Of a stretch of DNA of 64,000 bases, positions 13,561-61,870 are shown one piece after another. The DNA is taken from the IMG/VR virus record IMGVR_UViG_3300045988_148355, positions 58,966-122,965 of that record. The stretch is one strand, 5' to 3'. Positions within the stretch are counted from its first letter, which is position 1; every line of letters begins with the position of its first letter. This stretch comes from a virus. Made by a program: the position numbers and the translations under genes. The notes beneath the pieces are model-generated. The model saw only the letters and a list, made by a program, of their open reading frames with translations, made no database searches and was not told the origin of the DNA.

Positions 13561-13568
13561 ATAAACTA

Positions 13569-13605: not shown

Positions 13606-13633
13606 ATTTATAGAAAGGAGTTATTGAAGATCG

Positions 13634-16822: not shown

Positions 16823-16848
16823 ATAAAATTATAGAAAGAGGTTTTGTT

Positions 16849-17730: not shown

Positions 17731-17751
17731 TTGAAGAAAGAAGGTTAAATT

Positions 17752-18174
17752 ATGGAAATAACGGCTAATGCTTTACAATCAGTCGCTACTGGTTCTAATG
17801 TAGTATTTACTAACATCGCTGTTGCTGGAAACTATTCCATAATGTATCGCGAGGGTAGCGGTTTAGTTACCCTCCGCGGTCTTACGAACGGTCAGCGCAG
17901 AGCTCGTTTCCGCATTTCATTTGGAGGTAATATAGGACTTCCAACTACTGGAACTGCGGGAGCTATTTCTTTGGCTATAGCCATTAATGGAGAGCCAGTT
18001 ACTACTTCTACGATGATTTCTACTCCTACGGCTACTGGACAGTTTAATAATGTTTCACGTGCTTTATTCCTCGATGTGTTAGGCGGTTGTTGCACTCAAA
18101 TTAGTATTGAAAACACGAGTTCATAGGCTATTGATGTTGAAAACGCTAGCTTAATTATCGAGAGAGTGGCATAA
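17752..18174 (+). CDS. C1q/BclA-C-terminal-like jellyroll protein (putative capsid or fiber decoration); one TAG
   Basis: Segment ISFGGNIGLPTTGTAGAISLAIAINGEPVTTSTM resembles BclA/C1q-type trimeric domains. Track ORF 17752..18126 extends through a TAG to TAA 18172. Confidence 0.4.
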
Positions 18175-40371: not shown

Positions 40372-41319
40372 TTAGAATTTAAAACCTTCTGTAGCAGTGG
40401 ATGCGACAGTAGTAGCAGTAGTAGCATTCTGCTTAGAAGCTTTATATTCATCTTGACGCTGCTTCAAAGTAGCAAGGTAAGTCTCACGTGCGGCCATAGC
40501 TTCAGTAAGCTCTTTTGCAGTAATAGAACTTTCATCATCCCAAACATAAGGCTCCTTGGCACCACCGGTAATGACAAAATCCTTACGAGTACTCTGAACC
40601 TCACGAACATTATCGTCACCGAACGCAGATTCTTCACGAATCTCGCGCTTAATTACTTCAGATACCTGACGACCCCAAAGCTTTGTAAATACAGGCTCAG
40701 AAGGAGAGGCTCCAAGACCTTCGTAATAAGCCATAGCTCCAGGATTAGTAGCTGTAAACTCAACAGGAAGCAAAGACTTGCGGAAATCAAAAATTGCTCC
40801 CTTAACAATTACCTTTTCAGGAACATTATGCTCTTCATCAGCATCAATATGAGTTACATTAGTGATAATCATATCACACTTAAAAGTATTGCGCTGTTTT
40901 TCATCATCAATAAGAGTGGTAGTAGTATGAACAAATCCGCCCTCATTGCGCTTAGTGCTTACAAGCTCTTCCTTACCATTACGGTCAGAATAAAATTCAT
41001 TAAGACCAATCGCGGAATCAACACGAAGCTTAGCAGCTTTATCTTCTCCATCAGCCATATAATTACCAATTGTACCATCAATAATATTCTGAAGAATACT
41101 ATATGTAGCATTGGGAGTACCCTTGGTAGTGGTTTGAGTTACATAAGTAAAGTGAACCTGGACGATATTAGTAAGAGCATTATCAGTAGCAATACTAATA
41201 GTACCAGAAATAAAAGGAGTGCCGGGATTCTTAGAATTTGGTCCGGTTACCTTATTTTCCAAAGCATGTTCGTACAAGATACCTTCAATATGAGTAGCAT
41301 TTTCCATTACTTTCTTCAT
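40372..41319 (-). CDS. hypothetical protein, possibly an abundant DNA-binding/SSB-like partner of Sak4; GC-rich codon usage
   Basis: Track ORF. Function assigned from position only. Confidence 0.3.
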   Translation of the reverse strand: MKKVMENATHIEGILYEHALENKVTGPNSKNPGTPFISGTISIATDNALTNIVQVHFTYVTQTTTKGTPNATYSILQNIIDGTIGNYMADGEDKAAKLRVDSAIGLNEFYSDRNGKEELVSTKRNEGGFVHTTTTLIDDEKQRNTFKCDMIITNVTHIDADEEHNVPEKVIVKGAIFDFRKSLLPVEFTATNPGAMAYYEGLGASPSEPVFTKLWGRQVSEVIKREIREESAFGDDNVREVQSTRKDFVITGGAKEPYVWDDESSITAKELTEAMAARETYLATLKQRQDEYKASKQNATTATTVASTATEGFKF

Positions 41320-42450: not shown

Positions 42451-42729
42451 TCAATCCTCATTACTTAAAGTATATCCACTTAGATTGTGCCCAAGAGAAC
42501 GAACAAAACAATCAAGTTCATCAATAAATACCATACTGCCTTTTGGATAATTTCCATTTATATAGTCATGATATGAAATAAAATTAATTCCAGAAATTCC
42601 GTATCCTTCTGACTTAATTCTCATAGCATTAGGATTAGAACAAGCAATAATAGCATTTTTCTCTTTAGCTAACAGTATTAATCTACTCGTTTTTCCTGTT
42701 CCACGTTTATCAATTATTCTATACATCAT
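42451..42729 (-). CDS. small P-loop NTPase-like protein
   Basis: Motif DKRGTGKTSRL. Confidence 0.3.
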   Translation of the reverse strand: MMYRIIDKRGTGKTSRLILLAKEKNAIIACSNPNAMRIKSEGYGISGINFISYHDYINGNYPKGSMVFIDELDCFVRSLGHNLSGYTLSNED

Positions 42730-43151
42730 TTTATACTATACCCGAATTCCTTAGCTTTAAAATAGTCTTGCCAATAATCTTCTCGCGCATCTAACTCTTC
42801 ACGAGAGCATTCTTCTATTACTTCAAAACTAAAATTTTCTACTCCAATAGCTAACATAGCAGGATAAAGTTTATTGCGAGTGGCGGGTTCTGCACCAATT
42901 CCGCGTTTAATATGTTGTTTCCAACGTGCAGAAAGATCAACTGCTTGACCCACATAACACATTTGATTTTCTAAATTAGTAATTTTATAAATTCCTGTGT
43001 GGATTCCAGAGCCAATTACTCGACCAATTAAATCTGTAGTTGGTTTTTCATAATAACTTTTCCAAATTACTTTATTTAAAATATCTTTATCACGAAGTTT
43101 CGGCTCAATAGAGCGAAGAAGACTGATTTCATCAATATCTATTTGAGGCAA
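42726..43151 (-). CDS. GIY-YIG nuclease domain protein (GIYKITNLENQMCYVGQA...RWKQH); in frame with the upstream coiled-coil ORF across TAG 43152
   Basis: GIY-YIG motifs. TTG start immediately after the TAG. Confidence 0.55.
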   Translation of the reverse strand: MPQIDIDEISLLRSIEPKLRDKDILNKVIWKSYYEKPTTDLIGRVIGSGIHTGIYKITNLENQMCYVGQAVDLSARWKQHIKRGIGAEPATRNKLYPAMLAIGVENFSFEVIEECSREELDAREDYWQDYFKAKEFGYSIK

Positions 43152-43798: not shown

Positions 43799-44068
43799 TT
43801 ACTCCGCGTCAGGAGCGTCGGGATCAAAGCTCATGCCAGCGGGAGTGAGAGAGAGGAACTTGACCTGCTTATGAGTACCATCCTCAAGCTCAACCTCAGC
43901 GGGAGTGCGAAGACCGAGACCCTTGCGCTGAATAGCACTGGTAAAGATACCATCAACAGAACGCTTCTCGAGACCGAGAGCCTCAGCAACATCAGCAGCG
44001 GTAACTTCCTGACCGTTAACTTCCTTCAAATAATTAAGAACCTTCTTAGAATTTTCCTTCATAGCCAT
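43799..44068 (-). CDS. small winged-helix DNA-binding protein; strongly GC-rich relative to neighbours
   Basis: HTH-like segment EVTAADVAEALGLEKRSVDGIFTS. RBS aaaggag. Driven by a consensus promoter. Confidence 0.5.
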   Translation of the reverse strand: MAMKENSKKVLNYLKEVNGQEVTAADVAEALGLEKRSVDGIFTSAIQRKGLGLRTPAEVELEDGTHKQVKFLSLTPAGMSFDPDAPDAE

Positions 44069-48819: not shown

Positions 48820-49264
48820 CTGCTAATTCATTCCACAAATGGCCATCGTGCCCGGAAATTTTTCTTAAATCAATTTTAACTTCTTTTTCTGTTTCATAAT
48901 AATCTTTAATTAAATCAAGATTTTCTGGAGCTTTTTTATTAGATTTAATCCAATTATTACGTTCCCATCCATACATCCAATTAGTAAAAGTATTTACACA
49001 ATAGGCTGAATCACTATATACAGTAGGGATATCATTAGTCCATTCTCCATTGTCATGCTTGCCATATTTTTTCAATACATGAAGAATAGCTTTAATTTCT
49101 TCGCGGTTATTGGTAGTATCTTCAAAAGCGTTTATTTGACAAGCATCAATTACAACACCGTTTTCAGGATTGCTATCATATTCAATAACAACAAACCCAT
49201 AACCACCGCTATTATTTATTTGTCCGTTTTTACGACACGAACCGTCCGTATAAATTGCTATCAT
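48740..49264 (-). CDS. rnh: ribonuclease H
   Basis: Motifs IYTDGSC, YSDSAY and GHDGH..NELAD. The 3' end overlaps the annotated topo A start. Confidence 0.7.
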   Translation of the reverse strand: MIAIYTDGSCRKNGQINNSGGYGFVVIEYDSNPENGVVIDACQINAFEDTTNNREEIKAILHVLKKYGKHDNGEWTNDIPTVYSDSAYCVNTFTNWMYGWERNNWIKSNKKAPENLDLIKDYYETEKEVKIDLRKISGHDGHLWNELADGLATGKITAEEVLKKYGRDSKNSNS

Positions 49265-49362
49265 TATTTTTTATACCATATTTTATTAAATCCACTTAAA
49301 GAATAGATATTTTTATAATCATTATATACATCTAATCTTTTTTCTTTATTTTCTTTTCTTCG

Positions 49363-49950
49363 CTAAATTTCTATCCAAATTTCTTGTTGATTAGAACTAA
49401 TTTGACTTTTTCTAGCAAAACTTCTTACTTTAGATAAATATTCTTTTGATTTAACATATTCTATAGCTTCAGGACATATATCTATCCAACTGTCGCCCTT
49501 CCAAATATGTTTAAATCCTGATAAAGAAATTTTTTTACTATATAAAGGATAAACTTCAGACAACATTTTCCCCTAAAGTAATAAAGTTCTAATGTTTTGG
49601 ACTTCTTGTTCAGTTAAAGAAGAATTTGGATTTTTCTCTCCAGGTAAAGAAGGCCCTCCTTCTCCCCCTTTAGTTTCATTATAACCATTATTATAAGAAC
49701 CATAATATTCAATCCAATATTTCTCACGTTCAAATAATTTTTCTTTTGAAGTTAATTCAATTATTTCAAAAGAAAAATTATCAATTCCATATTTTCGGAA
49801 TGCTTTATGAATACTATAATTATACTAAGGATTTTTTTCTAATATTGATTCTGATTTATGAGAAATCCATCTACGTTCTATATTAACAGAACATCCTATA
49901 TAAATTTTTTTATTTATATTATTAGTTATTTTATAAATACCACAGCTCAT
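49363..49950 (-). CDS. GIY-YIG homing endonuclease with two in-frame TAGs
   Basis: N-terminus MSCGIYKITNNINKKIYIGCS...RRWISH. Track ORF 49363..49566 is its C-terminal DNA-binding part. Paralogous to 50785..51300. Confidence 0.6.
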
Positions 49951-49993
49951 ATTCTATTCACCTCATAAGAATATGAAATTATGAATGATTGCC

Positions 49994-50311
49994 TTAACAA
50001 AATTTGTCCGGGCAATCATGTGATGGCCTCCCTAAAAATTCATTTTCTCCACAATCAATATGAAAAGAAGTATTAGTAAAAATAGTAATTTTATCAATAA
50101 AATAATCGTTAATAATATTTACTTTATTATCTGGAAATAACTTTTGTAATTGCTCATGGAGGTCTCTACAAGTAATTATATCAATATCTTTATTAACATG
50201 AGCTAAAATAACGTCATCTTTACGAATAGGAATTATTTCAATAGGTGTTCCTTTATAATTACTTACATATCCCTTATCAGTTTTATACATCAATATTGGC
50301 CCTTTCTGCAT
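49994..50311 (-). CDS. hypothetical protein
   Basis: Track ORF. Confidence 0.25.
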   Translation of the reverse strand: MQKGPILMYKTDKGYVSNYKGTPIEIIPIRKDDVILAHVNKDIDIITCRDLHEQLQKLFPDNKVNIINDYFIDKITIFTNTSFHIDCGENEFLGRPSHDCPDKFC

Positions 50312-50495
50312 TTAATTCAATGAAAGATTTACGAGGGCCAACTGATTCACCCATTAAATCCATAAATGTTTTATTTACAAGATTCATATCATCCATTGTA
50401 ATCTGTTTTAAGGTGCGAGTTTCTGGATTCATAACCAATTCCATTTCATGAGTATCCATTTCACCTACATGTTTCTCCAATATTACTATTGGCAC
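50283..50495 (-). CDS. hypothetical protein (overlaps the previous ORF by 29 nt in a different frame)
   Basis: Track ORF. Confidence 0.25.
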   Translation of the reverse strand: MPIVILEKHVGEMDTHEMELVMNPETRTLKQITMDDMNLVNKTFMDLMGESVGPRKSFIELNAERANIDV

Positions 50496-50784
50496 TGACT
50501 ATTTCTTCGCTCCGGCTAACGTATTAACTGCCATCATCACGCCTACCTTTTTGAAAGTATGTATCAATAATACTTCCTACTCCCCGACAAAGGGGATAGT
50601 CGATACAGGATTAAACTACGATATTTTTCCAATTCTAATAACTCCATATATTTGTAAAAGAACCATATGTAAGTTTATTAGAATAATCTTTATAAACTTC
50701 TCTTATATTTTCTCCATTTTTACGACGTAATCTTATTTGATAAACATCTTGCTCAGTCATTTTAGAACGTCCATTTTTACTTCC

Positions 50785-51300
50785 CTAATTAGAAGTATTA
50801 TGTTTATGAAAATTTTTATTTTCAATACTATACACTTCTGGCATGATATTTTTCCAAGTATCACCATTCCAAATTTTATGGAAACCAGACTCACCAATTA
50901 AATTTTTATAATCTTCATAAACCTCATTTTTTCTTTCTTGATTATTATAGCGAGTTCTAATATCAATAACATCTTGCTTAGTTAACTTATGACTCGGATG
51001 GCTTTCTTCAGCATTAAATTGTCCTCCAGGAGTCATATTATACTAATCAGGATAAGTATTATAATACTTTATATAATACTATTCTTTATCATTAAGCTCT
51101 TCTATAGAACATTCTTCCAATATTTCAAAAGAAAAATTATCTATTCCATATTCTAATATGTCTTTATATAACTTTTTATTTTTTTCTCTATACCAGTTAT
51201 ATGATTTTTTATGTTCTCTAAAACGCTATTCTATTTGTGTGCTTTGTCCTATATAAGATAAGTTATTTATTTTATTGGTTATTTTGTAAATACCAATCAT
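50785..51300 (-). CDS. GIY-YIG homing endonuclease with three in-frame TAGs
   Basis: Reverse-strand translation reads MIGIYKITNKINNLSYIGQSTQIE-TAG-RFREH...DKE-TAG-YYIKYYNTYPD-TAG-YNMTPGG. The TAGs sit at positions occupied by polar residues in paralogs. Confidence 0.6.
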
Positions 51301-51451
51301 TTTAATTACCTCACTAATTATAAGTAAGATAATATCGCAGTTCTTCCCACGAGATTATCTCCACTAATATTTAACGCTTATTCATTTCAATTTTTCCTGA
51401 AATGTCCTAAATATTAGCAAGACTGCCTCGTTAGCCGCCAACTGGAAAATT

Positions 51452-53266
51452 TTACCAATTCGCGACCCCGCCGATCAGCGGAAAAGTAGGTAAGGGCCAG
51501 ACTTTCTCGTACCCTTTCATACGTCCTAATTCAAAGTTTTTGCTTTTCATAGTTTTTCTGAATGTTTCAAGAGCGACGTCATCTTTAAGATATTTAATAT
51601 TTGTGCCCCAAGTCGCTTTATAAAGAGGTGGAACCGCAGCATAAATATAACCTTTTTCAATTAATTCAGGTGCAAATTTCCAAATAAATGTAAGAAATAG
51701 AATACGAATATGGCTACCATCAACATCAGCATCCGCTGTGATAATAATCTTACCATAACGTAATTTAGATTCGTCCACAATTACTTTACCATCTTTAACC
51801 TCAAGACCAAAAGCATCAATCATCGCACTAATTTCTTTATTTCCTAATGCTTTATGCAAATCTGTTTTTAAAGTATTAAGGATTTTACCTCTTACAGGCA
51901 AAACTGCTTGTGTATTACGGTTACGAGCTTCTTTAGTAGGGCCTTCCGCGGAACGGCCTTCAACAATAAAAATTTCACATTCGCTTCTATTTTTACTATT
52001 GGCATCACTTAGTGTGCCGGGTAGAATGGTTCTTTTCTTTGTATCAACTTTACGAACGGTTTCTTTAGCCTTTTTCGCTTTTTCGCGTGCCGCACGCGCC
52101 AGCATTGCCTTATCTACAATAGCTTTAGCATCTTTTGGATTATTGTCGAGCCAAACTTTTAAATCTTTTGAGACAAGACGTTGAACAATAGTTCTTGCTT
52201 CACTACTGGATAAAACATCTTTGGTTTGACCAGAGAAAACCGGATCAGGCATAATAAATGAAAGAACAAGACTTAATCCTTCTTTAAGTTCTTCACCAGT
52301 GATATTAGCATCTTTCTCTTTTAAAAGACCTTTATCACGAGCATATTCATTAATAGAAGTAGTAAGTGCTGTTCTAAAACCGGTTAGATGTGTTCCACCA
52401 CTATTAGGAATTGAATTAGTATAAAGTTTATAAGTATCGCTATAGGTATCATTATATTCCATAGCAATTTTTACACCAATTCTATCTTCAATATTTTCAG
52501 TATAAAAAATTGAAGTAAGAGAAGTTTTATTGCTATTTAAATCTTTAATATAATCAAGAATACCATTTTTTGAAGTAATCTCTTCTTCTGGCTTATCAAG
52601 ATAAGTAAAATGAAATACCATACCAGGAGAAAGATAAGCTAATTCTTGAATTTGTTTTCTTAAAGCATCATAATCAAGAAGAATACCTTCTTTAAAAATA
52701 CTTTCATCTGGCAAAAATTTAACCCAAGTTCCAGTCTCTTTACCAGTCCATTTTTCTTCTTGATAATCTTTTAATTTTCCTTTTTCAAAAGATGCAACTG
52801 CGTGTTTACCATCACGGAAAGACGCTACTTGAAAATAACGAGAAAGAGCGTTAGTGGCTTTAGCGCCAACGCCATTCATACCACCAGATGTATTATATCC
52901 AGTTTTTCCGTTGCTATCAAATTTTGCACCGGTATGTAGTTTTGTATAAATATTTACCAATGTTTCACTACCGTCTTTAGCTTTTCCAAAAGGAACACCA
53001 CGTCCATTGTCGCGGATTTCAACATAACCATCTTTAGATACTGAAATATCGCAACGAGTACAATGACCATTTAAATATTCATCAACCGCGTTTGAAATAA
53101 TTTCAAGAGTAATATGTTTAACTCCATCGGGTCCAGTAGAACCGATAAACATACCAGGTCTAAGACGAATTGCCTCCATCCCTTCTAAAGTTTTTATATC
53201 TTTAATACCATAATCATCTTTTCCTCTTTTGAGGATAATTTCTTGACTCAATCTAAATACCTCCAA
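51452..53266 (-). CDS. type II topoisomerase subunit B (GyrB/ParE/T4 gp39-like: GHKL ATPase plus TOPRIM)
   Basis: Motif EGRSAEG. ATP-lid segment GGMNGVGAKATN. Confidence 0.85.
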   Translation of the reverse strand: MEVFRLSQEIILKRGKDDYGIKDIKTLEGMEAIRLRPGMFIGSTGPDGVKHITLEIISNAVDEYLNGHCTRCDISVSKDGYVEIRDNGRGVPFGKAKDGSETLVNIYTKLHTGAKFDSNGKTGYNTSGGMNGVGAKATNALSRYFQVASFRDGKHAVASFEKGKLKDYQEEKWTGKETGTWVKFLPDESIFKEGILLDYDALRKQIQELAYLSPGMVFHFTYLDKPEEEITSKNGILDYIKDLNSNKTSLTSIFYTENIEDRIGVKIAMEYNDTYSDTYKLYTNSIPNSGGTHLTGFRTALTTSINEYARDKGLLKEKDANITGEELKEGLSLVLSFIMPDPVFSGQTKDVLSSSEARTIVQRLVSKDLKVWLDNNPKDAKAIVDKAMLARAAREKAKKAKETVRKVDTKKRTILPGTLSDANSKNRSECEIFIVEGRSAEGPTKEARNRNTQAVLPVRGKILNTLKTDLHKALGNKEISAMIDAFGLEVKDGKVIVDESKLRYGKIIITADADVDGSHIRILFLTFIWKFAPELIEKGYIYAAVPPLYKATWGTNIKYLKDDVALETFRKTMKSKNFELGRMKGYEKVWPLPTFPLIGGVANW

Positions 53267-53269
53267 ATA

Positions 53270-53997
53270 TAATTTTTATGGGTATTTCTTTTACCTCTAC
53301 AAACAGCGGATATAGTAGAAGAATTTCCTTCACAAAATTGTGCTGCTAATTGTAAACTATCGAATTCTTTTATAAGATTATTATTTTTATCAAATGCTCC
53401 TACTTTACGGCTTGTTTTTATTATTCTATTAGACTAAATTTGATTAGTCTTTTTTTCAGGTTCAATAATTTGATTTTCTTCATCTAAAAATCTAAATACT
53501 CTATTTCCTGTAGTTAGTCTAATCCCATTACATACGTTACTAATTTTAAATCTATCTAAATTAGTCTATTCTCCTGCGTCAGCCAATGAATTCCAAATAT
53601 TTAAAATATTTTTATTTTTATCAATTTCACAAACTTTTTTTCCATATTTTTTTCTTTTTGTATCACTCATTTTTGAAGCAATTTTAGGATCAAACATAGG
53701 ACTTTCTGTATTATCAGTCTAATTATAGCCTTTTGGAAAAATACAGTCTTCTTTAATAATATAATCATGCTCTATTTTAATCATATCTTCCCAATTTTTA
53801 GCATTACTAATAATTTCAAATGTAAAATTATTTATCCCGTATTCACGGAAATCTTGCATCAGTGGATAATTATAACGATGATCTTTCGGATTTTTAGAAG
53901 CTCCAATATGATGTCTCCAACGTCTATGCACATCAATCGAAGAACCAATATATATTTTGTTATTTATTTTATTAGTAATTTTATAAATTTGATACAT
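53270..53997 (-). CDS. GIY-YIG homing endonuclease with three or four in-frame TAGs; 3' end overlaps the topo B start
   Basis: Track ORF 53719..53997 (MYQIYKITNKINNKIYIGSS...RRWRHH) continues through TAGs to a TGA at ~53270. Confidence 0.55.
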
Positions 53998-55177: not shown

Positions 55178-55573
55178 TTAAATACCATAATCAGTATTTA
55201 TAGGGGCACTATTATCGCTATAATCGTCTTCGGTGTAATAATTCATAGAAGTAGTTTCAGTATTATCTACTACTGGTATATTATTTAATTCTTCTTTATA
55301 ATTATTATAAGCTTCATCAAGCTCTTTCATAACTGAAGCATATTTAACGCCATCTTTAGTATTTTCAGCCATTGATTTTTTATAATAGTATACTTGGCTC
55401 ACGCCATATGCTGCCCAAGGAAGACTTGCGCTTGCAGTAAGCCAGGGTAAAGAACCCATATATCCATTATAAATACAATAAAATGCTAAAACAATATATG
55501 CTAATGTTGAAATCCAAATTAAAGCAGATTCTTGAATTAATAAAGTCTTAGAAAATTCTCTTTTTTGTTTCAT
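55178..55573 (-). CDS. holin (two TM helices plus a charged C-terminal tail), immediately downstream of the endolysin
   Basis: Hydrophobic segments ALIWISTLAYIVLAFYCIY and LPWLTASASLPWAAYGV. Its start overlaps the endolysin stop. Confidence 0.5.
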   Translation of the reverse strand: MKQKREFSKTLLIQESALIWISTLAYIVLAFYCIYNGYMGSLPWLTASASLPWAAYGVSQVYYYKKSMAENTKDGVKYASVMKELDEAYNNYKEELNNIPVVDNTETTSMNYYTEDDYSDNSAPINTDYGI

Positions 55574-55574: not shown

Positions 55575-56878
55575 TTACACCAATCCTTTATCTTTCATAA
55601 TTCTATAAAGAACTACAATCATTTCTTCACGAGTCATAAATTTTTTATACATTTTACGATTTAAATTATCGCCTTTAATATATCCTTTGCTTTCAGCCCA
55701 AGTTCTTTCCGTATCAGACCAAGAACTTGCGTTTTTTTCAGCTTGTTGATTTAAATAAACTTCCATCATTTCATTAAATTTATCCTAAGTCATATCGTCT
55801 TCATCCTCCTCATTAATATTTATATTATCACCAATTTTTTGTTTAAATAGCTACCATTGGTAATCGCCACTTGTTTTATAATAACTATTCATATCAGTTC
55901 CGCACAACGGACGAGGGCATAATTTACCAGTTACGTCATAGTGACGAATAACACGATTCGCAGGTATATTGTATTTCTACATTAATTGCTTTACTAATTG
56001 TACTGTATTTTCTAATGCTCTTGGATCGAAATACCAATCAGTATCACTGGCTACAATATTAGATTTATTTATTTTACAGGGTCTTACTTCAATTCCAATA
56101 GAATTAGCATTTCTACATTCAGGATGTTTATATCCTTTTCTTGTGCCGCAGTGCCAAGCAATATCTTCATCTTTAACACTACGATAAATAATATCTTTTT
56201 CATCAACACAATAATGGGCTGATGATTTAGCGACAGGATTTTTAAAATAATTACTAATATTTTTTGCCGTTCCCAAAGAACCAAAATAATGTATTACAAT
56301 ATATTTTATTTTTCTATTATTGCCTTTTTGATAATTAGATGTTGTTAAATTATCTACAATTTTCATATCTTCACCTTTTCCTATAAATTGGTCATATATT
56401 TCAACCCCATAATATAATCTCTACTATTGGATTTTTAAACTCTAATCTTTTGGTCGTTCAAACTATGTTAAAACTATATTTGAAGCAGTCTATATATCTT
56501 TACAATTTATTAAAGTATTCCAAACGGTAGGATAATATGTAGAAAGTTGATAAATTAAAAATTCAAGTTGTGTATTTAAGTTTCCTATTGAAGTATTTTT
56601 CTTTTTTGTAAAATCATATAATTGTTTTTTAAGACTCCAATAAGTCCATTGAGCTAAACCATATCCAACTTTATCATAAATGAAATTAGTATATTTACCA
56701 TTATCTACTTGTTTTGTATACTATTCATCATTTAATCCAAGTGTTTTTTCAAAACTATTTTGAAGATTTTTTGGATTAAAATTTGATTCAGCTTTTAAGT
56801 TTCCCATTAGCCCGGCTGTTCCATAAGGATTTTTTATTTGTTTATACAAATAATTCCAAGTTATTTCAATGTTAGTCA
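55575..56878 (-). CDS. three-domain endolysin: phage-tail-lysozyme-like N-domain, Amidase_2/PGRP N-acetylmuramoyl-L-alanine amidase, C-terminal SLH-like cell-wall-binding module; about five in-frame TAGs
   Basis: Track ORFs 55977..56366 and 55575..55769 lie in the same frame. Amidase motifs IVIHYFGS, HYCVD, AWHCG and HYDVTGKLCP. SLH-like segment SWSDTERTWAESKGYIKGD...TREEMIVVLYRI. Confidence 0.65.
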
Positions 56879-56898
56879 TATTATCCTCCTTTCTATAA

Positions 56899-56938
56899 AA
56901 TAAAAAAAGAAAGAGAAGAAGTAAATCTTCTCTTTCTT
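56899..56938 (-). terminator. rho-independent terminator
   Basis: Hairpin aagaaagagaag / cttctctttctt followed by a T7 run on the - strand. Confidence 0.5.
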
Positions 56939-56942: not shown

Positions 56943-58205
56943 TTACATATGTTCAGCTAATGCTGCAATTTTAGAACGATGAATTTGTTTTAATTCAATT
57001 TCGCCATATACATCCGATCCTCTAAATACTTTAGAAGCACGACGCATACCATTATTGGCTCCGGCAAAAGCAATATCATCAACTTGAGTTTTATCATCGC
57101 CATCAATGATACAAATGCCATCTTCACCGATACGCTGTAAAGTCAATTTCATAAGCGAAATATCCATATTTTGGGCTTCAGAAATATAAATACCTGCTTT
57201 CATTCCAGTAGTGTCATAACCACGAATATCACTTAACGGCAAAAGAACTAATTGTTCATTTTCAATCATGCGTTCAACAGCTAAGCGACCACCAAATTTA
57301 CTAATTAAAAGATTGCCAATTTGGCTATCAAGTAATTTTTCATCTCGGGTGCCAGGATAAAAGCCTAATTTTGCAGAATTTTTAGTGGCAATTGTATTAC
57401 AAAATACAATGATTTTATCAATGCGTCCACGCTCAAATTGATTCATTAAGAAAGCTAAGCTTAAATAAGTTTTACCTGAACCCGCAGGGCCACGAACCAT
57501 AGTAATAGTATTATTAATAAGGCTATCGGCGAATAAAGCTTGGTAAGGGTCATCTTTCATAGGTTTTACTTTTCCAAATTGAGCAGAATCAAAATTACCA
57601 AATGAAATAGGACGATAACCATCACCAGTATAACATACTTTATCAACGATATTATTATCTTTGTCTTTTATAATTAAATATTCATTAATATGTAAATTAT
57701 AAATATTTTCATATTGGGTAGAATAAAAATCAGCCATTTCCGCATCTGACATTGTAATTTCTACATATCCCTTATATTCATCAATTAATTCTTCATCTAT
57801 ACTTTGGATATGATCTTTATCAAAGAAAAGATTCGCCATCGCTTTTAATGATAAATCATTAGTGATAAATATAGTATTTGGATGGGCTAATTTAAATTCA
57901 ATTGCGGTAGATAAAATTTTACTATCATCAGTAATTGGAAGGTTAGAATCTTCAATTATTTTTAATCCATCTAATTTGAATAGTTGGATAATATAATTAT
58001 CAGGGTTTTCATTCAATTTATGTAATACTTTACGAGCTGAATATTTAACATCAGCATCTTTATTTGATGATGTTTTTATATTTTCTAATTCTTTTAAAGT
58101 AATAGAAGATATAACAGGTGTATATTCTTCCTCTTGGAGGAATGTATCAACCGTCATCAGCAAACTACAAGTATCATAGAATTTATACATCTTCGTACTC
58201 ATCAT
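56943..58205 (-). CDS. phoH: PhoH-like ATPase with an N-terminal PIN domain
   Basis: Walker A GPAGSGKTYL. PhoH signature downstream. Confidence 0.7.
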   Translation of the reverse strand: MMSTKMYKFYDTCSLLMTVDTFLQEEEYTPVISSITLKELENIKTSSNKDADVKYSARKVLHKLNENPDNYIIQLFKLDGLKIIEDSNLPITDDSKILSTAIEFKLAHPNTIFITNDLSLKAMANLFFDKDHIQSIDEELIDEYKGYVEITMSDAEMADFYSTQYENIYNLHINEYLIIKDKDNNIVDKVCYTGDGYRPISFGNFDSAQFGKVKPMKDDPYQALFADSLINNTITMVRGPAGSGKTYLSLAFLMNQFERGRIDKIIVFCNTIATKNSAKLGFYPGTRDEKLLDSQIGNLLISKFGGRLAVERMIENEQLVLLPLSDIRGYDTTGMKAGIYISEAQNMDISLMKLTLQRIGEDGICIIDGDDKTQVDDIAFAGANNGMRRASKVFRGSDVYGEIELKQIHRSKIAALAEHM

Positions 58206-58935: not shown

Positions 58936-59073
58936 AGTAGTAGAACTCCTTTCTATCTATTTCTATAAATATATTAACATAAAAATTATTAAAAGGCAAG
59001 TTTTAGGATTTTTGTTAAAAAAATTTCTATGGGTGTGAGTAATTGGAACTACGGCCGATCGCGTTAATCAGGG

Positions 59074-59113
59074 CAAAAAAATAGACACTATGAAATAAAT
59101 CATAGTGTCTATT
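59074..59113 (-). terminator. rho-independent terminator downstream of the flotillin gene
   Basis: Hairpin atagacactatga / tcatagtgtctat followed by a T7 run on the - strand. Confidence 0.55.
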
Positions 59114-59117
59114 TAAA

Positions 59118-60503
59118 TTACTTATTCAATGCCTTTGTAAGCATTTCCTTAATGTCGATGCCATTTTCAGACATTGCTTCGATAACCTGGTTTGCGGAAC
59201 CCATAACATCCTTTACAAGACGAGCAGAGTTTCCATCGCCATACTGGACGATCTTATCCACATTGGTAAGAGGGGCCGCTGCATTTGCCACGATTTGAGG
59301 CATTGCATTGAAATACATTTCAATGATAGAAGCTTCACCCATCTTCTTCTGCGCTTCTGCTTTCTTGTCGATTGCTGCGGCTTCGGCTTCACCAACAGCT
59401 GCGATACCGGCAGCTTTCTGTTCGGCTGCAAACTTTTCTGCTTCAGCGCGAGCACGCATAGCTTTTGCTTCCTGCTCGATCTCATAAGCCTTAGCTTCGG
59501 CATCCTTCTGACGACGAATCAGATCTGCTTCAGCGGCCTTTTCCGCAGCATACTTATCAGCATCGGCCTGCTTACGAACCAATGCAGTCAGTTCGTATTC
59601 CTTAAGCTCGATTTCTTTTTGCTTCAGCTCAGCTTCGCGCTCGGCCTTTGCGATATTCGCATTAGTTGCAGCGACATCCTTGAGCTTACGCTGATTTTCA
59701 GCCTCAATGCCAGCCGCAGCTTCAGCCTGAGCTTTCTTAGTATCAGCTTCCTGCTTCAACTGAGCCTGCTTGATAGCAAGATCATTATTGCGGATTGCAA
59801 TTTCCTCAGCAGCCTTGACCTTGGCGTCATTGGACTGCTTAGCATTTTCCGCACGAGCGACCTCAATCTCACGTTCCGCATTGGACTTAGCGATCGCCGC
59901 GTTCTTGCTAATCTGAGCGACATTATCAATACCAAGGTTAGTGATAACATCATTATCATCAGAGAAGTTCTGAACGTTAAAGGTAATCAGCTCAAGACCA
60001 TAACGCGCCAGATCGGGAACTGCGTTCTCCTGGACTTTCTCGCTAAACAACTTACGATCGCTAACCATATCAGTCAACTTCATCTGACCGACGATCTCAC
60101 GGATATTACCCTCAAGAAGGTCGTTAATCTTACGAGAAATTTCATCACGGCCTACATTAAGGAAGTTCTGAGCGGCGAGTGCAATCATTTCAGGATCTCT
60201 ACCAACACGTACAGAAACCGTAGAATCAACACGAACGTTAATGTATTCGGCAGTAGGAACCGCAGATCCAGTCTTTACATCAATTTGAATAGCTCCAAGA
60301 GCAAGCTTATCCAAACGTTCGAAGAAAGGAATCTTCAAGCCAGCTTTACCAACAAGAATTCGAGGTTTCTTATGGACACCACTGATGATATAAGCCATAT
60401 CAGGCGGGGCCTTTACATAACCATTGAGGAAAATGAAAATTACCAGTAGTACGATAAGAACTACAGGAATTGCCGGAAGGATAAATGAAATAATAGCGGG
60501 CAT
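59118..60503 (-). CDS. flotillin-like SPFH/band-7 membrane protein (N-terminal TM helix, SPFH domain, Ala/Glu-rich coiled coil)
   Basis: Coiled-coil EA-repeat region (AEAKA..., EAEAAAIDKKAEAQ). GC content ~50% versus ~30% in the backbone. Confidence 0.75.
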   Translation of the reverse strand: MPAIISFILPAIPVVLIVLLVIFIFLNGYVKAPPDMAYIISGVHKKPRILVGKAGLKIPFFERLDKLALGAIQIDVKTGSAVPTAEYINVRVDSTVSVRVGRDPEMIALAAQNFLNVGRDEISRKINDLLEGNIREIVGQMKLTDMVSDRKLFSEKVQENAVPDLARYGLELITFNVQNFSDDNDVITNLGIDNVAQISKNAAIAKSNAEREIEVARAENAKQSNDAKVKAAEEIAIRNNDLAIKQAQLKQEADTKKAQAEAAAGIEAENQRKLKDVAATNANIAKAEREAELKQKEIELKEYELTALVRKQADADKYAAEKAAEADLIRRQKDAEAKAYEIEQEAKAMRARAEAEKFAAEQKAAGIAAVGEAEAAAIDKKAEAQKKMGEASIIEMYFNAMPQIVANAAAPLTNVDKIVQYGDGNSARLVKDVMGSANQVIEAMSENGIDIKEMLTKALNK

Positions 60504-60805
60504 AAATAATTCTCCTTATTTATTTAATTTTAAATTTTATACTTATATTTGAATAATGCTTCAATAGCATCATCAATCGAATTATAGTATCCATTGTGTT
60601 CAAATTCTCCATCTTCATCCCATAAGAAAGAGATTTCTACACCTAATGGACCTTGTTCCAATTTTTCTTTTACTTCTTTGTAAATTGCTTCTTCCATTTA
60701 TCTTGTTATTAATTTTTCCCAATCTTCATAGGACCATTTTTCCAGTAATGAGTTTTTTTGTTAAATCATTACCTTTATAATCATAAAGTGCCATTTAGTT
60801 TTTCC

Positions 60806-61366
60806 TCATTCATCAAGGAATGATTTACATTCCTCAACTTTGGCTTTCATAGCATCAATGATTACATCAAGATTAATGGGATATCCATGGTGAGAATCAA
60901 CACCTACATGATACATATAAGGTCGATCTTCAAAGAAATTAGTAGTTTGATGAGTATGACCGTAAAGATTCAAAGTCATTTGATGAAGATTTTCTCTTTC
61001 AAGATTACCAGTCATACAAGGGAAATGGGTCATAAAGAAATGGTATTTACGATAATTTAGCATAATTGCCCAGTCCATTTCAACAACATTAGGCAAATCC
61101 GCGTAAAGCTTCTGCCGAGTCGTTGTATCATGATTGCCAAATACAATATGGAATTTACCCTTAAGACGTTTAACATATTCAATATTAGAAGGGTCTCCAA
61201 GCATTAGATCACCAAGAATATAAACGTCATCTTCATCAGAAATGATGCTATTCCATTTCTCGATGTAATCTTCATTCATTTCTTTAATTGAAGAATAACC
61301 ACGAGCTTTCCAAATAAATTCTCGATCATGTCCAAAGTGCATATCACTGGTTAAAAAGATTGCCAT
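60806..61366 (-). CDS. calcineurin-like metallophosphoesterase
   Basis: Motifs SDMHFGH, GDL and GNHD. Confidence 0.65.
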   Translation of the reverse strand: MAIFLTSDMHFGHDREFIWKARGYSSIKEMNEDYIEKWNSIISDEDDVYILGDLMLGDPSNIEYVKRLKGKFHIVFGNHDTTTRQKLYADLPNVVEMDWAIMLNYRKYHFFMTHFPCMTGNLERENLHQMTLNLYGHTHQTTNFFEDRPYMYHVGVDSHHGYPINLDVIIDAMKAKVEECKSFLDE

Positions 61367-61870
61367 GTATGAATCACTTCTCCTTTTTCGTTAACCTCTT
61401 GGATAAGGTTATATTTAATATATTCTTTAAAAGTGGGAGGAGTAAAAGAATTTGCCATACTCCGAATCACTTCTTCTGGAACCTGTGCTCGACCATCACG
61501 CTGTTTATTGCGCTCAATACAAACTTCAACAGGAACATTAAAATAAATAACATTCACGTTAAGATTTGTATATCCTTTTGCGTTAATTGCTTTGAGAAGT
61601 TTCTTGCGGGAGCCGGGTCCAAGATGCGTGGCATCCGCATATACATCATCATAGTCTCTTAAAGAAAGAGTAATTGCTTCAACAAAAGCATGCCATACAC
61701 TTTCCTCTTTGGCAAAATAACTTTCATCATCATTTAACATTTGAAAACGAATTGCATCACGAGAAACAATACAACCACATTGAGGCCAACGGTTTTTAAG
61801 CCAAGTGGATTTACCCGAGCCGAGACTAAGGAATACCAGACATAATCCAAAGATTCTTTCTAGTATTCAT
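61351..61870 (-). pseudogene. polynucleotide-kinase-like P-loop kinase, interrupted at Walker A by a 7-nt TAG-containing insert (needs a +1 frameshift or is inactivated)
   Basis: Frame A reads MNTRKNLWIMSGIP-TAG-SRLG-TAA. Frame B reads LSLGSGKSTWLK...FQ and joins track ORF 61351..61740. Deleting tagtctc would restore GIPGSGKST. Confidence 0.45.

What the first reader, a model, noticed from the sequence alone, without database searches (positions are those of the whole stretch)
59118..60503. Phage-encoded flotillin (SPFH) protein with host-like GC content
The 461-aa product has an N-terminal TM helix, an SPFH/band-7 core and a long Ala/Glu-rich coiled coil typical of FloT/YqiK flotillins. The gene is ~50% GC inside a ~30% GC genome and is bracketed by its own terminator at 59074-59113. 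This is consistent with recent acquisition from a higher-GC bacterium or selection for host-optimal codons. A phage flotillin could reorganise membrane microdomains during infection or lysis; it sits in the same region as the holin, endolysin and PhoH genes.
Basis: partly seen in the sequence, partly recalled or inferred. Interest (0 to 1): 0.6.

Follow-up and report, generated by a model that had tools for sequence, protein, structure and literature searches.

The report
Conserved, codon-optimised flotillin in gut phage
A large human-gut phage carries a real flotillin (a membrane-scaffold protein) whose high GC content comes from its Ala/Glu-rich sequence plus capsid-like codon optimisation, not from recent gene theft, which suggests the phage makes this protein in large amounts.

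Summary
Window 59118-60503(-) encodes a 461-aa flotillin-type SPFH protein with an N-terminal membrane helix, an SPFH core and a 187-residue Ala/Glu/Lys helix. It aligns full length to human flotillin-1. Its GC is 45.7% against 30.4% for the window, the highest of any gene-sized stretch in the 64 kb, and an intrinsic terminator follows the stop codon.

"Recent acquisition from a higher-GC bacterium" is not supported. The gene sits at the same syntenic position in more than 60 phage contigs of a roughly 190-200 kb, TAG-recoded gut phage group. All phage copies form one clade (97% bootstrap). It is the most conserved protein in its neighbourhood (omega about 0.05-0.16).

Synonymous sites are saturated between lineages, yet the unusual codon usage persists (AAG, CAG, CGT, GGT, ATC and TTC preferred; TTA, AGA, GGA, CCA and ATA avoided). 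The phage's major capsid, scaffold-like and tail-tube-like genes use the same codons.

About 38% of the GC excess comes from amino-acid composition and about 62% from translational selection, which implies very high expression.

The biological role is inferred only: an abundant scaffold or cage on the host membrane. No NfeD partner was found. The terminator, a separate promoter and the pattern of stop-codon recoding set the gene apart from the adjacent lysis genes.

The parts
59118..60503 (-). Flotillin-type SPFH protein gene, 461 aa, ATG start, TAA stop
   Evidence: ORF. Pfam Band_7 E=6.5e-20. NCBIfam FloT full-length alignment at 220 bits. Flotillin-1 of PDB 9l3g, E=4.8e-43 over residues 33-446. 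Identical protein found on 9 metagenome contigs.
60423..60503 (-). N-terminal hydrophobic membrane anchor (residues 1-27)
   Evidence: Kyte-Doolittle 19-residue mean up to 3.29 over residues 1-35. AF2 helix 2-27. Composition 26% Ile, 19% Leu, 15% Val.
59874..60404 (-). SPFH / Band-7 domain (residues 34-210)
   Evidence: Pfam PF01145 covers 34-210. Many invariant columns across 30 phage and bacterial homologs.
59361..59921 (-). Long Ala/Glu/Lys-rich helix (residues 195-381), the flotillin coiled-coil region; GC is highest here
   Evidence: AF2 predicts a single helix 195-381 with pLDDT 81-90. 28% Ala, 15% Glu, 13% Lys and 24 EA/AE dipeptides. Aligned to the flotillin-1 helical region. GC 0.49-0.53.
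59166..59447 (-). C-terminal flotillin-like region (residues 353-446)
   Evidence: Pfam PF15975 'Flot' scores 20.6 bits, below the 27-bit cut-off. The region is aligned to the flotillin-1 C-terminus.
60512..60517 (-). Shine-Dalgarno AAGGAG, 8 nt upstream of the ATG
   Evidence: Sequence. AAGGAG or AGGAG is present upstream of the flotillin start in nearly all phage lineages.
59074..59114 (-). Intrinsic terminator directly after the stop codon
   Evidence: 15-bp stem plus T-run, dG -20 kcal/mol, z=-9.2, 0 of 200 shuffles as stable. A hairpin plus T-run at the same place, with different stem sequences, in about 19 of 21 lineages.
58971..59073 (-). Context: a conserved GC-rich element of about 45 nt (59030-59073), then a sigma-70-like promoter (-35 TTGCCT 58994-58999, -10 TAATAT 58971-58976) for the next, separately transcribed unit (orf145-PhoH-endolysin)
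   Evidence: Alignment of the intergenic region across lineages shows terminator, then ...CGGCCGTAG...CACCCATAGAAATTTTTT, then TTGAYTT-N17-TATAAT, then the SD. Window sequence. Function not tested.
60530..61740 (-). Context: co-directional, TAG-free upstream genes that probably share the transcript: AAA_33 kinase-like (61351-61740), Metallophos_2 (60806-61366), 55-aa ORF (60530-60697)
   Evidence: Pfam. Conserved order in relatives. Metallophos_2 has no in-frame TAG in 20 lineages. No terminator-like site between them. Co-transcription is inferred.
59295..60449 (+). 384-aa antisense ORF: a by-product, not a gene
   Evidence: It is exactly codon-aligned to the flotillin. It is open because the sense gene has no TTA, one CTA and one TCA. 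The antisense frame is broken at different places in other lineages, with longest open runs of 58-491 codons.

Best explanation
Window 59118-60503(-) encodes a genuine flotillin-type SPFH membrane scaffold. It is an old, vertically inherited and strongly conserved gene of a group of roughly 190-200 kb, TAG-recoded, siphovirus-like phages from human and animal guts. The host is probably a member of the Clostridia (inferred).

The high GC has two causes. About 38% of the excess comes from the Ala/Glu/Gly/Val-rich protein, which raises GC at first codon positions. About 62% comes from a particular synonymous codon usage: AAG, CAG, CGT, GGT, CTT/CTG, ATC, TTC and AAC are preferred, and A-ending codons such as TTA, AGA, GGA, CCA, ATA and CAA are avoided.

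Selection maintains that codon usage, and it is the same usage seen in the phage's major capsid, scaffold-like and tail-tube-like genes. It therefore marks translational optimisation for very high expression with the host's tRNA pool. It is not a foreign-DNA signature.

The gene is the last cistron of a TAG-free unit (AAA_33 - Metallophos_2 - orf55 - flotillin). It has a strong SD and ends at a positionally conserved intrinsic terminator. The lysis-side genes downstream have their own promoter.

Proposed mechanism (inferred, not shown): the protein inserts by its N-terminal hydrophobic helix into the cytoplasmic face of the host membrane. It oligomerises through the long helix into SPFH-type domes or cages, as flotillin-1/2 and HflK/C do. 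In stoichiometric amounts it reorganises or stabilises the host membrane during the long infection cycle, for example by keeping the membrane intact and energised, or by scaffolding membrane-bound phage processes, until lysis.
For: Identity:
- Pfam Band_7, NCBIfam FloT end-to-end alignment, flotillin-1 of the solved cage E=4.8e-43 over residues 33-446.
- Membrane helix and a 187-residue helix.

Old phage gene:
- The identical protein or 82-99% relatives lie on 190-201 kb metagenome and IMG/VR contigs with the same gene order.
- All 48 viral loci, down to 56% identity, share window proteins in their flanks.
- All phage copies plus seven nested Oscillospiraceae sequences form a 97%-bootstrap clade; Lachnospiraceae flotillins (50-55% identity) are the outgroup.
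- The flotillin is the most conserved gene locally: median 79% identity against 61% or less for neighbours. dN/dS is 0.05-0.18.

Not a decaying import:
- dS is 1.2-2.8 or incalculable.
- Conserved 4-fold sites differ at 0.60 against 0.62 expected for independent third positions, even versus the closest sister lineage.
- Yet 29 of 38 shared Lys sites are AAG/AAG and 14 of 20 shared Gln sites are CAG/CAG, against a genomic background of 81-84% AAA and 87% CAA.
- The same codon pattern is seen in most of the 21 lineage representatives; L023 and L134, and partly L015 and L139, are the exceptions.
- Flotillin GC3 exceeds the neighbour mean in all 63 phage loci.

Selection rather than GC drift:
- Ala and Asp codon fractions are almost as in the rest of the window, and 4-fold families stay mostly T-ending (GCT, CCT, ACT, GTT, CGT, GGT).

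Positive control:
- In the same phage lineage (L198) three genes are TAG-free and prefer AAG: the MCP (368 aa; homologs are annotated as major capsid protein in Bacillus phages), the adjacent 305-aa gene, and the 327-aa virion structural / tail-tube-like gene. AAG:AAA is 19:5, 20:5 and 13:11.
- The tape-measure and baseplate genes are 23:192 or similar.
- Preferences learnt only from those three genes rank the flotillin 2nd of 72 window ORFs (z=2.8). The preference vectors correlate at r=0.66.

Transcription-unit boundary:
- Terminator, separate promoter and TAG pattern.

Established knowledge: SPFH proteins form membrane-attached oligomeric domes. The PDB entries matched are 22+22-chain flotillin and 26-chain QmcA assemblies.
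Against: - No expression data: high expression is inferred from codon usage alone.
- The host is unknown, so 'host-optimal' is inferred from the capsid-gene proxy and from the AAG/CAG-rich usage of Clostridia genomes in the fetched loci.
- A few phage lineages (L023, L134; partly L015, L139) lack the AAG preference and have GC3 of only 0.26-0.27, so selection is not uniform.
- Conservation did not correlate with the codon pattern across the nine neighbourhood genes once the flotillin was removed.
- An RNA-ligase-like gene and a NAMPT-like enzyme in relatives also carry the pattern, and these are not obviously abundant proteins.
- The phylogeny is neighbour-joining only, with weak internal support (9-76%).
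- The AF2 model is poor (pLDDT 63). Oligomerisation and membrane effects were not tested.
- The absence of in-frame TAG cannot date expression, because the late MCP is TAG-free too.
Confidence: 0.72

Rival explanations
1. Recent horizontal acquisition from a higher-GC bacterium, with the GC excess being un-ameliorated donor composition.
For: - The gene is GC-richer than every other stretch of the window.
- The closest bacterial homologs (66-73% identity) come from Oscillospiraceae MAGs with about 60% GC, and their flotillin GC3 is 0.88-0.92.
- C-to-T decay of G/C-ending codons would also produce T-ending 4-fold codons.
Against: - No bacterial sequence above 73% identity was found among representatives of 185,579 species.
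- The gene is syntenic and forms one clade across phage lineages down to 57% identity.
- Synonymous sites are saturated between lineages, yet AAG and CAG persist while Glu has moved to mostly GAA.
- The codon usage matches the phage's own capsid genes. It fits 60%-GC bacterial flanks worst (log-likelihood -1.38 to -1.51, against -1.01 for 39%-GC phage relatives).
Confidence: 0.05
2. An ancient phage gene whose host-like composition is kept by repeated recombination or gene conversion with the flotillin genes of successive hosts, not by translational selection.
For: - The Oscillospiraceae clade is nested among the phage sequences, which shows that exchange between phage and bacteria did occur at least once.
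- GC3 varies widely between lineages (0.26-0.53) and roughly follows flank GC.
Against: - No phage lineage is close to any bacterial sequence; the highest identity is 73%.
- Capsid, scaffold-like and tail-tube-like genes have no host counterpart to recombine with, yet they show the same codon usage.
- Phage copies stay in one clade apart from a single nested bacterial clade.
Confidence: 0.07
3. The codon pattern is an mRNA-level constraint of a Lys/Glu/Gln/Ala-rich coiled coil, such as avoiding long A-runs that cause slippage or ribosome sliding, or stabilising the mRNA. It does not signal high expression.
For: - GC3 is highest (0.40-0.53) from codon 121 onward, which includes the K/E/Q-rich helix. 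It is lower (0.27-0.37) in the first 120 codons.
- AAG instead of AAA is the classic way of avoiding poly-A tracts (own knowledge).
Against: - The bias also affects Leu (TTA 0 of 32), Arg (CGT rather than AGA), Gly (GGT rather than GGA), Pro, Ile and Phe, which have nothing to do with A-runs.
- The SPFH core at codons 121-210 already has GC3 of about 0.52.
- The same pattern is found in the non-coiled-coil capsid and tail-tube-like genes and in an 89-aa winged-helix-like gene.
Confidence: 0.08
4. Functional rival: the flotillin belongs to the lysis system. It would organise holin rafts or otherwise time lysis, as its proximity to PhoH, the endolysin and a holin-like gene suggested.
For: - The endolysin (55575-56936) and a holin-like membrane protein (55178-55573) lie 2-4 kb downstream on the same strand.
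- This order is conserved in relatives.
- Flotillins concentrate membrane proteins (established knowledge).
Against: - A conserved terminator and then a separate promoter lie between the flotillin and the downstream genes.
- The downstream genes are TAG-recoded in many lineages (orf145 6/16, PhoH 12/16, endolysin 4/5, holin-like 5/9). The flotillin is recoded in 0 of 21, like its upstream neighbours.
- Capsid-level codon optimisation suggests far more protein than a lysis regulator would need.
Confidence: 0.12
5. Functional rival: the flotillin acts in conflict. It could exclude superinfection by altering the membrane where incoming phage DNA enters. It could counter host abortive-infection systems that damage the membrane. 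Or it could cage the FtsH protease as HflK/C does.
For: - SPFH relatives HflK/C enclose FtsH and influence phage lambda development (established knowledge).
- An SPFH protein recruits the phage-shock protein PspA in B. subtilis (PMC8581546).
- The gene is very strongly conserved.
Against: - No match to any PADLOC defence model.
- No partner gene such as NfeD, FtsH or PspA was found among the neighbours or membrane proteins of the window.
- Conflict genes usually evolve fast and vary in presence, whereas this is the slowest-evolving gene in the region.
Confidence: 0.12

Closest known systems
Bacterial flotillin FloT (B. subtilis YuaG type) / E. coli YqiK
   Same: - N-terminal membrane anchor, SPFH domain, long Ala/Glu-rich coiled coil and C-terminal region.
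- Similar length (461 aa against a 477-position profile).
- Aligns end to end with the NCBIfam FloT model.
   Different: - It scores 220 bits against the 700-bit equivalog cut-off, so it is not a FloT orthologue by NCBI's criterion.
- No adjacent NfeD partner.
- It is encoded by a phage and is at most 57% identical to any bacterial flotillin outside the one nested Oscillospiraceae clade.
Eukaryotic flotillin-1/flotillin-2 cage (PDB 9l3g, 9bq2)
   Same: Sequence homology over SPFH, helical and C-terminal regions (residues 33-446, E=4.8e-43). The fold and an oligomeric dome are therefore expected.
   Different: - The eukaryotic proteins are anchored by acylation and a hairpin, and they form hetero-oligomers of two paralogues. 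The phage has a single gene with a hydrophobic N-terminal helix.
- Assembly state was not tested here.
SPFH / Band-7 genes listed in other phage genomes (T4-like 44RR, Aeh1, RB43; Vi01-like Sajous1; Vibrio phage KIT04 'flotillin family protein')
   Same: Phage-encoded SPFH-domain proteins of unknown role (PMC1524935, PMC10892097).
   Different: - They are only distantly related: KIT04 is 27% identical over 39% of the query.
- No PHROG family matches this protein.
- None has been shown to be a conserved, codon-optimised gene across a phage group.
TAG-recoded gut phages: the 'Sapphire' clade (~200 kb; preprint 10.1101/2021.08.26.457843) and phAss-1 (PMC10607447)
   Same: [quoted passage not shown]
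- The MCP and tail-tube-like proteins are about 50% identical to phAss-1 proteins.
   Different: - Membership of 'Sapphire' was not tested because no reference sequence was compared.
- Neither paper mentions a flotillin.
- phAss-1 gave no flotillin hit.

Membership tests
SPFH (stomatin/prohibitin/flotillin/HflKC) superfamily | SPFH / Band-7 domain detectable by sequence | tested here: met
   Pfam PF01145, 72.4 bits against a 23.6-bit cut-off, residues 34-210.
Flotillin family (FloT / flotillin-1 type) | Homology extends beyond the SPFH domain through the flotillin helical and C-terminal regions | tested here: met
   Flotillin-1 aligned over residues 33-446, E=4.8e-43. The NCBIfam FloT profile is matched over positions 4-474 of 477.
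Flotillin family (FloT / flotillin-1 type) | Pfam 'Flot' C-terminal domain above the gathering score | tested here: not met
   20.6 bits against a 27-bit cut-off. Some close homologs do carry a precomputed PF15975 hit.
Flotillin family (FloT / flotillin-1 type) | Membrane anchoring at the N-terminus | tested here: met
   Hydrophobic segment at residues 1-35 with a maximum 19-residue hydropathy of 3.29. Predicted helix 2-27. Prediction only.
Flotillin family (FloT / flotillin-1 type) | Long Ala/Glu-rich coiled coil that drives oligomerisation | tested here: met
   Single predicted helix 195-381, 28% Ala and 15% Glu, 24 EA/AE dipeptides. Oligomerisation itself was not tested.
Flotillin family (FloT / flotillin-1 type) | Assembly into a large membrane-attached ring or dome | not testable with these tools
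   The monomer model is poor (pLDDT 63) and no multimer prediction was available.
B. subtilis FloT equivalog (NCBIfam NF058507) | Score at or above the curated equivalog cut-off of 700 bits | tested here: not met
   220.3 bits. It is flotillin-like but not a FloT orthologue.
Bacterial flotillin operon | Adjacent NfeD-family membrane partner | tested here: not met
   - No Pfam hit for the two immediate neighbours.
- No NfeD among the predicted membrane proteins of the window that were scanned.
- Pfam found no NfeD among the ten ORFs flanking the flotillin in the two Oscillospiraceae loci scanned.
- The Lachnospiraceae neighbours were only inspected by eye, not scanned.
Anti-phage defence systems with SPFH-like components (PADLOC-DB) | Match to a defence-system protein model | tested here: not met
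   No PADLOC family at E<=0.01 for the flotillin or its two neighbours.
Recently transferred (alien) gene | Atypical composition, patchy presence among close relatives and a close donor homolog | tested here: not met
   The composition is atypical. But the gene is present and syntenic in every related locus retrieved through the flotillin itself, so presence across the whole phage group was not tested independently. The best bacterial identity is 73%. The codon usage equals that of the phage's own capsid genes.

The most novel reading that the evidence does not exclude
The phage makes flotillin in capsid-like amounts to build its own SPFH-caged membrane domains in the infected cell. This would be a virus-specified membrane compartment that scaffolds a phage process at the membrane (replication, assembly or controlled envelope breakdown), or that shields the membrane against host suicide systems. 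The gene would be indispensable to this widespread group of gut phages. A second, linked reading: in code-switching phages, a small set of genes that must be made in bulk (flotillin, capsid, tail tube, an 89-aa winged-helix-like protein) is kept free of TAG and tuned to host tRNAs. Codon usage would then report the phage's abundance hierarchy.
Probability: 0.2. Interest if true: 0.75.

Novelty: new member of a known kind. Interest (0 to 1): 0.42.

Why it matters
Phage genomes have been known to carry SPFH/Band-7 genes since 2006, but none has a known role. In this case the gene is fixed across a very common group of large gut phages; one variant alone was seen on 357 contigs. It is the slowest-evolving protein in its neighbourhood and is at least as strongly codon-optimised as the major capsid gene, which indicates an abundant and important product. 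That makes it a good candidate for working out what a viral flotillin does to a bacterial membrane.

The case also carries a methodological warning. A strong GC island in an AT-rich phage can be caused by amino-acid composition plus translational selection, and need not mean horizontal transfer.

The nested Oscillospiraceae clade hints that bacteria may have acquired a flotillin from phages.

Tried and rejected
1. Megablast of the region against INPHARED found no match. No PHROG family matches the flotillin.

2. Recent HGT was rejected on synteny, phylogeny and saturation.

3. Antisense 384-aa ORF as a gene: rejected. It is codon-aligned, explained by the missing TTA/CTA/TCA codons, and not kept open in other lineages.

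4. MT835492.1, a 121-kb flotillin-carrying phage, was used for an unbiased ranking of genes by GC3. The phage is unrelated to this window (3 weak protein hits). Its flotillin ranks 5th of 71, but the other top genes have no PHROG function, so the test was uninformative.

5. Conservation against codon pattern across neighbourhood genes: n=9, not significant once the flotillin is removed.

6. AF2 with a shallow 12-sequence alignment gave pLDDT 63, too poor for a fold search.

7. Conserved AATTAAATA upstream motif as a phage promoter: not enriched (17 matches against 11.3 +/- 3.3 expected) and mostly inside genes, so dropped.

8. The GC-rich element CGGCCGTAGTT has one near-copy at 43209, but that lies inside a coding region, so there is no repeat family. 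Rfam found nothing significant in the intergenic region or in the window.

9. 'TAG-free means expressed before the code switch' was weakened, because the late MCP is also TAG-free.

10. No tRNA genes in the window or in 34 related loci, so the idea of phage tRNA supplementation could not be tested.

11. The PhoH-based retrieval meant to test whether the flotillin is a core gene reached only 97-99% relatives. PhoH dN/dS values are unreliable because PhoH is TAG-recoded in other lineages.

12. The contig look-up for window ORF 1458-2393 was not on record.

13. No defence association was found in PADLOC.
Full report
**1. Checking the observation**

- Pfam finds an SPFH/Band_7 domain at residues 34-210 (E=6.5e-20). 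It also gives a sub-threshold hit to the flotillin C-terminal model (20.6 bits against a 27-bit cut-off).
- NCBIfam's FloT model aligns end to end, but at 220 bits against a 700-bit equivalog cut-off.
- A sequence search of the PDB aligns residues 33-446 to human flotillin-1 from the solved flotillin cage (9l3g, 9bq2; E=4.8e-43). It matches E. coli QmcA more weakly.
- Residues 1-35 are strongly hydrophobic.
- An AlphaFold2 model from a shallow alignment is poor overall (pLDDT 63). It still gives the expected secondary structure: helix 2-27, an alpha/beta core at about 70-181, and a single helix at 195-381 with pLDDT 81-90. That helix is 28% Ala, 15% Glu and 13% Lys.

The protein description is therefore confirmed.

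The composition claim is also confirmed, although '~50%' is slightly high.

- The gene is 45.7% GC against 30.4% for the window. 400-bp windows peak at 49-50%.
- The gene-sized window covering it is the GC maximum of the whole 64 kb, 4.8 SD above the mean. The next best stretch is 38.5%.
- The anomaly is not only a matter of amino-acid composition. GC3 is 0.418 against 0.182 +/- 0.078 for the other ORFs.

Directly after the stop codon lies a 15-bp hairpin followed by a T-run (59074-59114; -20 kcal/mol; z=-9.2). The terminator is real, but it is only downstream of the gene. Upstream there is a good Shine-Dalgarno, AAGGAG, 8 nt before the ATG.

**2. What kind of genome this is**

The window holds a phage replication module: a PolC/YorL-like polymerase, NrdD, topoisomerase II subunits, ligase, a DnaB-like helicase, primase and PIN-PhoH. 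It also holds tail-fibre-like genes.

No close relative exists in the annotated phage collection. The polymerase is 39% identical to SPbeta-type YorL.

The identical flotillin and 82-99% relatives lie on human-gut metagenome and IMG/VR contigs of about 190-201 kb. These contigs share the same local gene order: AAA_33 kinase-like, Metallophos_2, a small ORF, the flotillin, then PIN-PhoH, endolysin and GyrB. One variant alone (P0082) was seen on 357 contigs.

**3. Is the gene a recent import?**

I fetched 80 loci from species-representative bacterial genomes and 48 from viral contigs. I classified them by whether their flanks encode relatives of other window proteins.

- Every viral locus is syntenic with the window, down to 56% flotillin identity.
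- Some 'MAG' hits at 70-99% are clearly the same phages binned into bacterial genomes.
- The nearest real bacterial copies are seven Oscillospiraceae/Clostridia MAG sequences (66-73% identity). They sit in ordinary chromosomal contexts: SecY, MBOAT/AlgX, cytochrome c552, ResB/CcsA.
- Everything else, mostly Lachnospiraceae, is 50-57% identical.

I built a neighbour-joining tree with 100 bootstraps.

- All phage copies plus the Oscillospiraceae sequences form one clade with 97% support.
- The Oscillospiraceae sequences are nested inside the phage diversity. The node that excludes the basal phage lineages L138/L134 has 74% support.
- The Lachnospiraceae flotillins form the outgroup.

If a transfer is visible at all, it runs from phage to bacterium. 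The weak internal support and the simple tree method mean this stays a lead and not a result.

**4. Why the GC is high**

If the same protein were encoded with the window's average codon usage, it would be 36.3% GC. So 38% of the excess over 30.5% comes from the Ala/Glu/Gly/Val-rich composition (GC1 = 0.61). The remaining 62% comes from synonymous choice.

The synonymous shift is specific, not a general move towards G and C. Values are flotillin against the rest of the window:

| Codon | Flotillin | Rest of window |
|---|---|---|
| Lys AAG | 81% | 19% |
| Gln CAG | 86% | 13% |
| Leu TTA | 0% | 52% |
| Ile ATC | 48% | 9% |
| Phe TTC | 64% | 17% |
| Arg CGT | 76% | 38% |
| Arg AGA | 5% | 37% |
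| Gly GGA | 15% | 41% |
| Pro CCA | 0% | 31% |

Ala and Asp codon fractions are almost as in the rest of the window. Four-fold families remain mostly T-ending. The main effect is avoidance of A-ending codons.

One side effect is that the exactly codon-aligned antisense frame is open for 384 codons. That ORF is broken at different places in other lineages, so it is not a gene.

**5. Relic or selected?**

- Flotillin GC3 exceeds the mean of its neighbours in all 63 phage loci (mean +0.15). The window's lineage is the most extreme (z about 3.4-4.7).
- Between the window lineage and its closest sister lineages (82-86% protein identity), dS is about 1.9 and dN/dS is 0.05-0.07.
- At conserved four-fold sites, 60% of third positions differ, against 62% expected if they were independent. 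Synonymous sites are fully randomised.
- Even so, 29 of 38 shared Lys sites are AAG in both lineages and 14 of 20 shared Gln sites are CAG in both. Glu has turned over to mostly GAA.
- Most of the 21 lineage representatives show the AAG/CAG/no-TTA pattern. L023 and L134, and partly L015 and L139, do not.

A decaying donor signature would not behave like this. The pattern is an equilibrium held by selection.

The flotillin is also the most conserved protein of the neighbourhood: median 79% identity across lineages, against 61% or less for the others.

**6. What the selection is for**

Two other window genes share the pattern: an 89-aa winged-helix-like gene with its own SD and terminator (43799-44068), and a 315-aa gene next to the Sak4/RecA-like recombinase (40372-41319).

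For a positive control I walked leftwards from the window's tail-fibre genes through IMG/VR contigs of the same lineage.

- Baseplate-like proteins and the 2,586-aa tape-measure protein use ordinary AT-rich codons (for example AAG:AAA 23:180) and are full of in-frame TAG codons.
- Three genes just upstream stand out. They are a 305-aa scaffold-like gene, a 368-aa gene and a 327-aa gene. All are TAG-free, with AAG:AAA of 20:5, 19:5 and 13:11.
- Homologs of the 368-aa protein are annotated as major capsid protein in Bacillus phages PJN02, Kirov and Thrax1-3.
- The 327-aa protein falls in a 'virion structural protein' PHROG and weakly resembles solved tail-tube proteins.

I then learnt codon preferences from these three genes only and scored the window's ORFs. 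The flotillin ranks 2nd of 72 (z=2.8), the 89-aa gene 1st and the 315-aa gene 3rd. The two preference vectors correlate at r=0.66, with near-identical values for CGT, GGT, GGA, GAA and ATA.

It is established that virion structural genes of phages carry host-preferred codons because they are made in bulk (own knowledge). The simplest reading is that the flotillin is translationally optimised to the same degree as the capsid, or more, and is therefore made in large amounts.

'Host-optimal' is not directly shown, because the host is unknown. The direction (AAG, CAG, little TTA) does match the general codon usage of the Clostridia genomes fetched here. The endolysin domains and phage relatives point to Firmicutes/Clostridia.

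**7. Relation to the lysis genes and to stop-codon recoding**

While looking for structural genes I found that this phage reads TAG as a sense codon in late genes.

- With TAG read through, the fragmented plus-strand ORFs at 3241-10944 fuse into one 2,567-codon ORF with 33 in-frame TAGs.
- The apparently split endolysin (55575-56936) becomes one 453-codon ORF with 9 TAGs.
- TAG positions align mostly with Gln in lineages that use a standard codon there.
- This is a known phenomenon in gut phages. The size and habitat fit the 'Sapphire' clade of the recoding survey (10.1101/2021.08.26.457843), and the structural proteins are about 50% identical to phAss-1 (PMC10607447). Neither paper mentions a flotillin.

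Across 21 lineages the flotillin has no in-frame TAG among 527 Gln codons. The same holds for its upstream neighbours.

The genes just downstream of its terminator are recoded in many lineages: orf145 in 6 of 16, PhoH in 12 of 16, endolysin in 4 of 5, and the holin-like gene in 5 of 9.

A hairpin plus T-run follows the flotillin stop in about 19 of 21 lineages, with different stem sequences. It is followed by a conserved GC-rich element and a TTGAYTT-N17-TATAAT promoter for the next gene.

So the flotillin ends one transcription unit and the PhoH/lysis genes belong to another. I first read the absence of TAG as evidence for expression before the code switch. That does not hold, because the late capsid gene is TAG-free as well. 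High expression alone can explain it. Expression timing therefore remains open.

**8. Function**

Nothing in the sequence fixes the biological role.

- There is no NfeD partner among the neighbours or membrane proteins of the window.
- There is no match to defence-system models.
- The library holds no paper on a phage-encoded flotillin of this kind. It holds only lists of SPFH hits in T4-like and Vi01-like phages.

My best-supported mechanism rests on homology to proteins that form membrane-attached domes, on the membrane anchor and on the inferred abundance. The proposal is a stoichiometric scaffold that remodels or stabilises the host membrane during infection. I give this general statement about one chance in three to one in two. 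The specific alternatives (lysis timing, superinfection exclusion or counter-defence, FtsH caging) each get about one in eight.

**9. Verdict**

The feature is real and correctly identified as a phage flotillin. The intriguing explanation, a recent import from a GC-rich donor, is wrong. The GC island is composition plus capsid-like codon optimisation in an old, highly conserved phage gene.

This is a new member of a known kind: phage SPFH genes and translational selection are both known. The interest is moderate. The gene is conserved and probably abundantly expressed across a very common group of gut phages, and no viral flotillin has a known function.

Noticed in passing
window 3-14662 (+), 16819-17730 (+), 55575-56936 (-): TAG is read as a sense codon (most likely Gln) in late genes. 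With TAG read through, 3241-10944 becomes one 2,567-codon tail-fibre-like ORF with 33 in-frame TAGs. 1452-3125, 11221-12927 and 13628-14662 also fuse. The 'split' endolysin becomes one 453-codon ORF with 9 TAGs. These genes have almost no CAG. TGA read-through fuses nothing. There is no tRNA gene in the window. The phenomenon is known; the phages resemble the 'Sapphire' clade and phAss-1.
   Followed up: yes
window 43799-44068 (-): An 89-aa gene with a strong SD and its own terminator. It has the most extreme capsid-like codon usage in the window (AAG+CAG 11:0, TTA 0 of 9, GC 0.50, GC3 0.47). It has only weak winged-helix-like similarities (ComA, Z-alpha; E 0.08-1) and no Pfam or PHROG family. 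It is probably a very abundant small nucleic-acid-binding protein.
   Followed up: partly
window 40372-41319 (-): A 315-aa gene (phrog_2367, unknown function) next to the Sak4/RecA-like gene. It is third in capsid-like codon usage (AAG+CAG 24:8, no TTA) and has no PDB or Pfam match. It could be an abundant DNA-binding protein such as an SSB.
   Followed up: partly
window 59030-59073 (-) and the same position in L005, L008, L015, L109, L116, L117, L120, L123, L138: A GC-rich element of about 45 nt (...AACGCGATCGGCCGTAGTT...CACCCATAGAAATTTTTT) is conserved between the flotillin terminator and a sigma-70-like promoter of the next gene, although synonymous sites are saturated between these lineages. 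It could be an operator or leader for the PhoH/lysis-side unit. No Rfam match and no second copy in the window.
   Followed up: partly
L016-L022 (Oscillospiraceae / Clostridia MAG contigs): Seven bacterial flotillins (GC3 0.69-0.95, fully adapted to 50-64% GC genomes) nest inside the phage flotillin clade. They lie in different chromosomal contexts in L016 and L018. This suggests a phage-to-bacterium transfer of a flotillin. It rests on an NJ tree with moderate support only.
   Followed up: partly
PhoH orthologs in L001, L005, L014, L109, L114, L116, L117, L120, L122 versus window 56943-58205: PIN-PhoH is free of in-frame TAG in the window lineage and in L128, L130 and L139. It carries 1-9 in-frame TAGs in 12 of 16 lineages, so the extent of recoding differs between close relatives.
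   Followed up: yes
L001 5114-6490, L008 2506-3846, L114 659-1849; L123 245-2014: An RNA-ligase-like gene of about 400-460 aa and a NAMPT-like gene in relatives also show the capsid-like codon usage (AAG+CAG fraction 0.71-0.94, TTA about 0). The optimised class is therefore not limited to structural proteins.
   Followed up: no
window 49000-53300; L009-L011: The GyrB-like topoisomerase subunit region is interrupted by GIY-YIG homing-endonuclease genes in relatives: a GyrB body of 575-599 aa, a GIY-YIG ORF, then a separate 84-aa GyrB_C piece. A GIY-YIG-like ORF also lies at window 42726-43151.
   Followed up: no
L140-L142 (MT835492.1, 121.6 kb human-gut phage): An unrelated phage (only 3 weak protein matches to the window) also carries a 517-aa flotillin. 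It ranks 5th of 71 genes by GC3 and prefers AAG/CAG (0.72). Flotillins have therefore entered, or been kept in, more than one gut phage lineage with a similar codon signature.
   Followed up: partly
window 16849-18126 (+): The second GC-richest stretch (38.5% over 1.4 kb) encodes Gly/Asn/Ala-rich ORFs of 202 and 124 aa with no Pfam hit. With TAG read through, the first extends to 303 codons.
   Followed up: no
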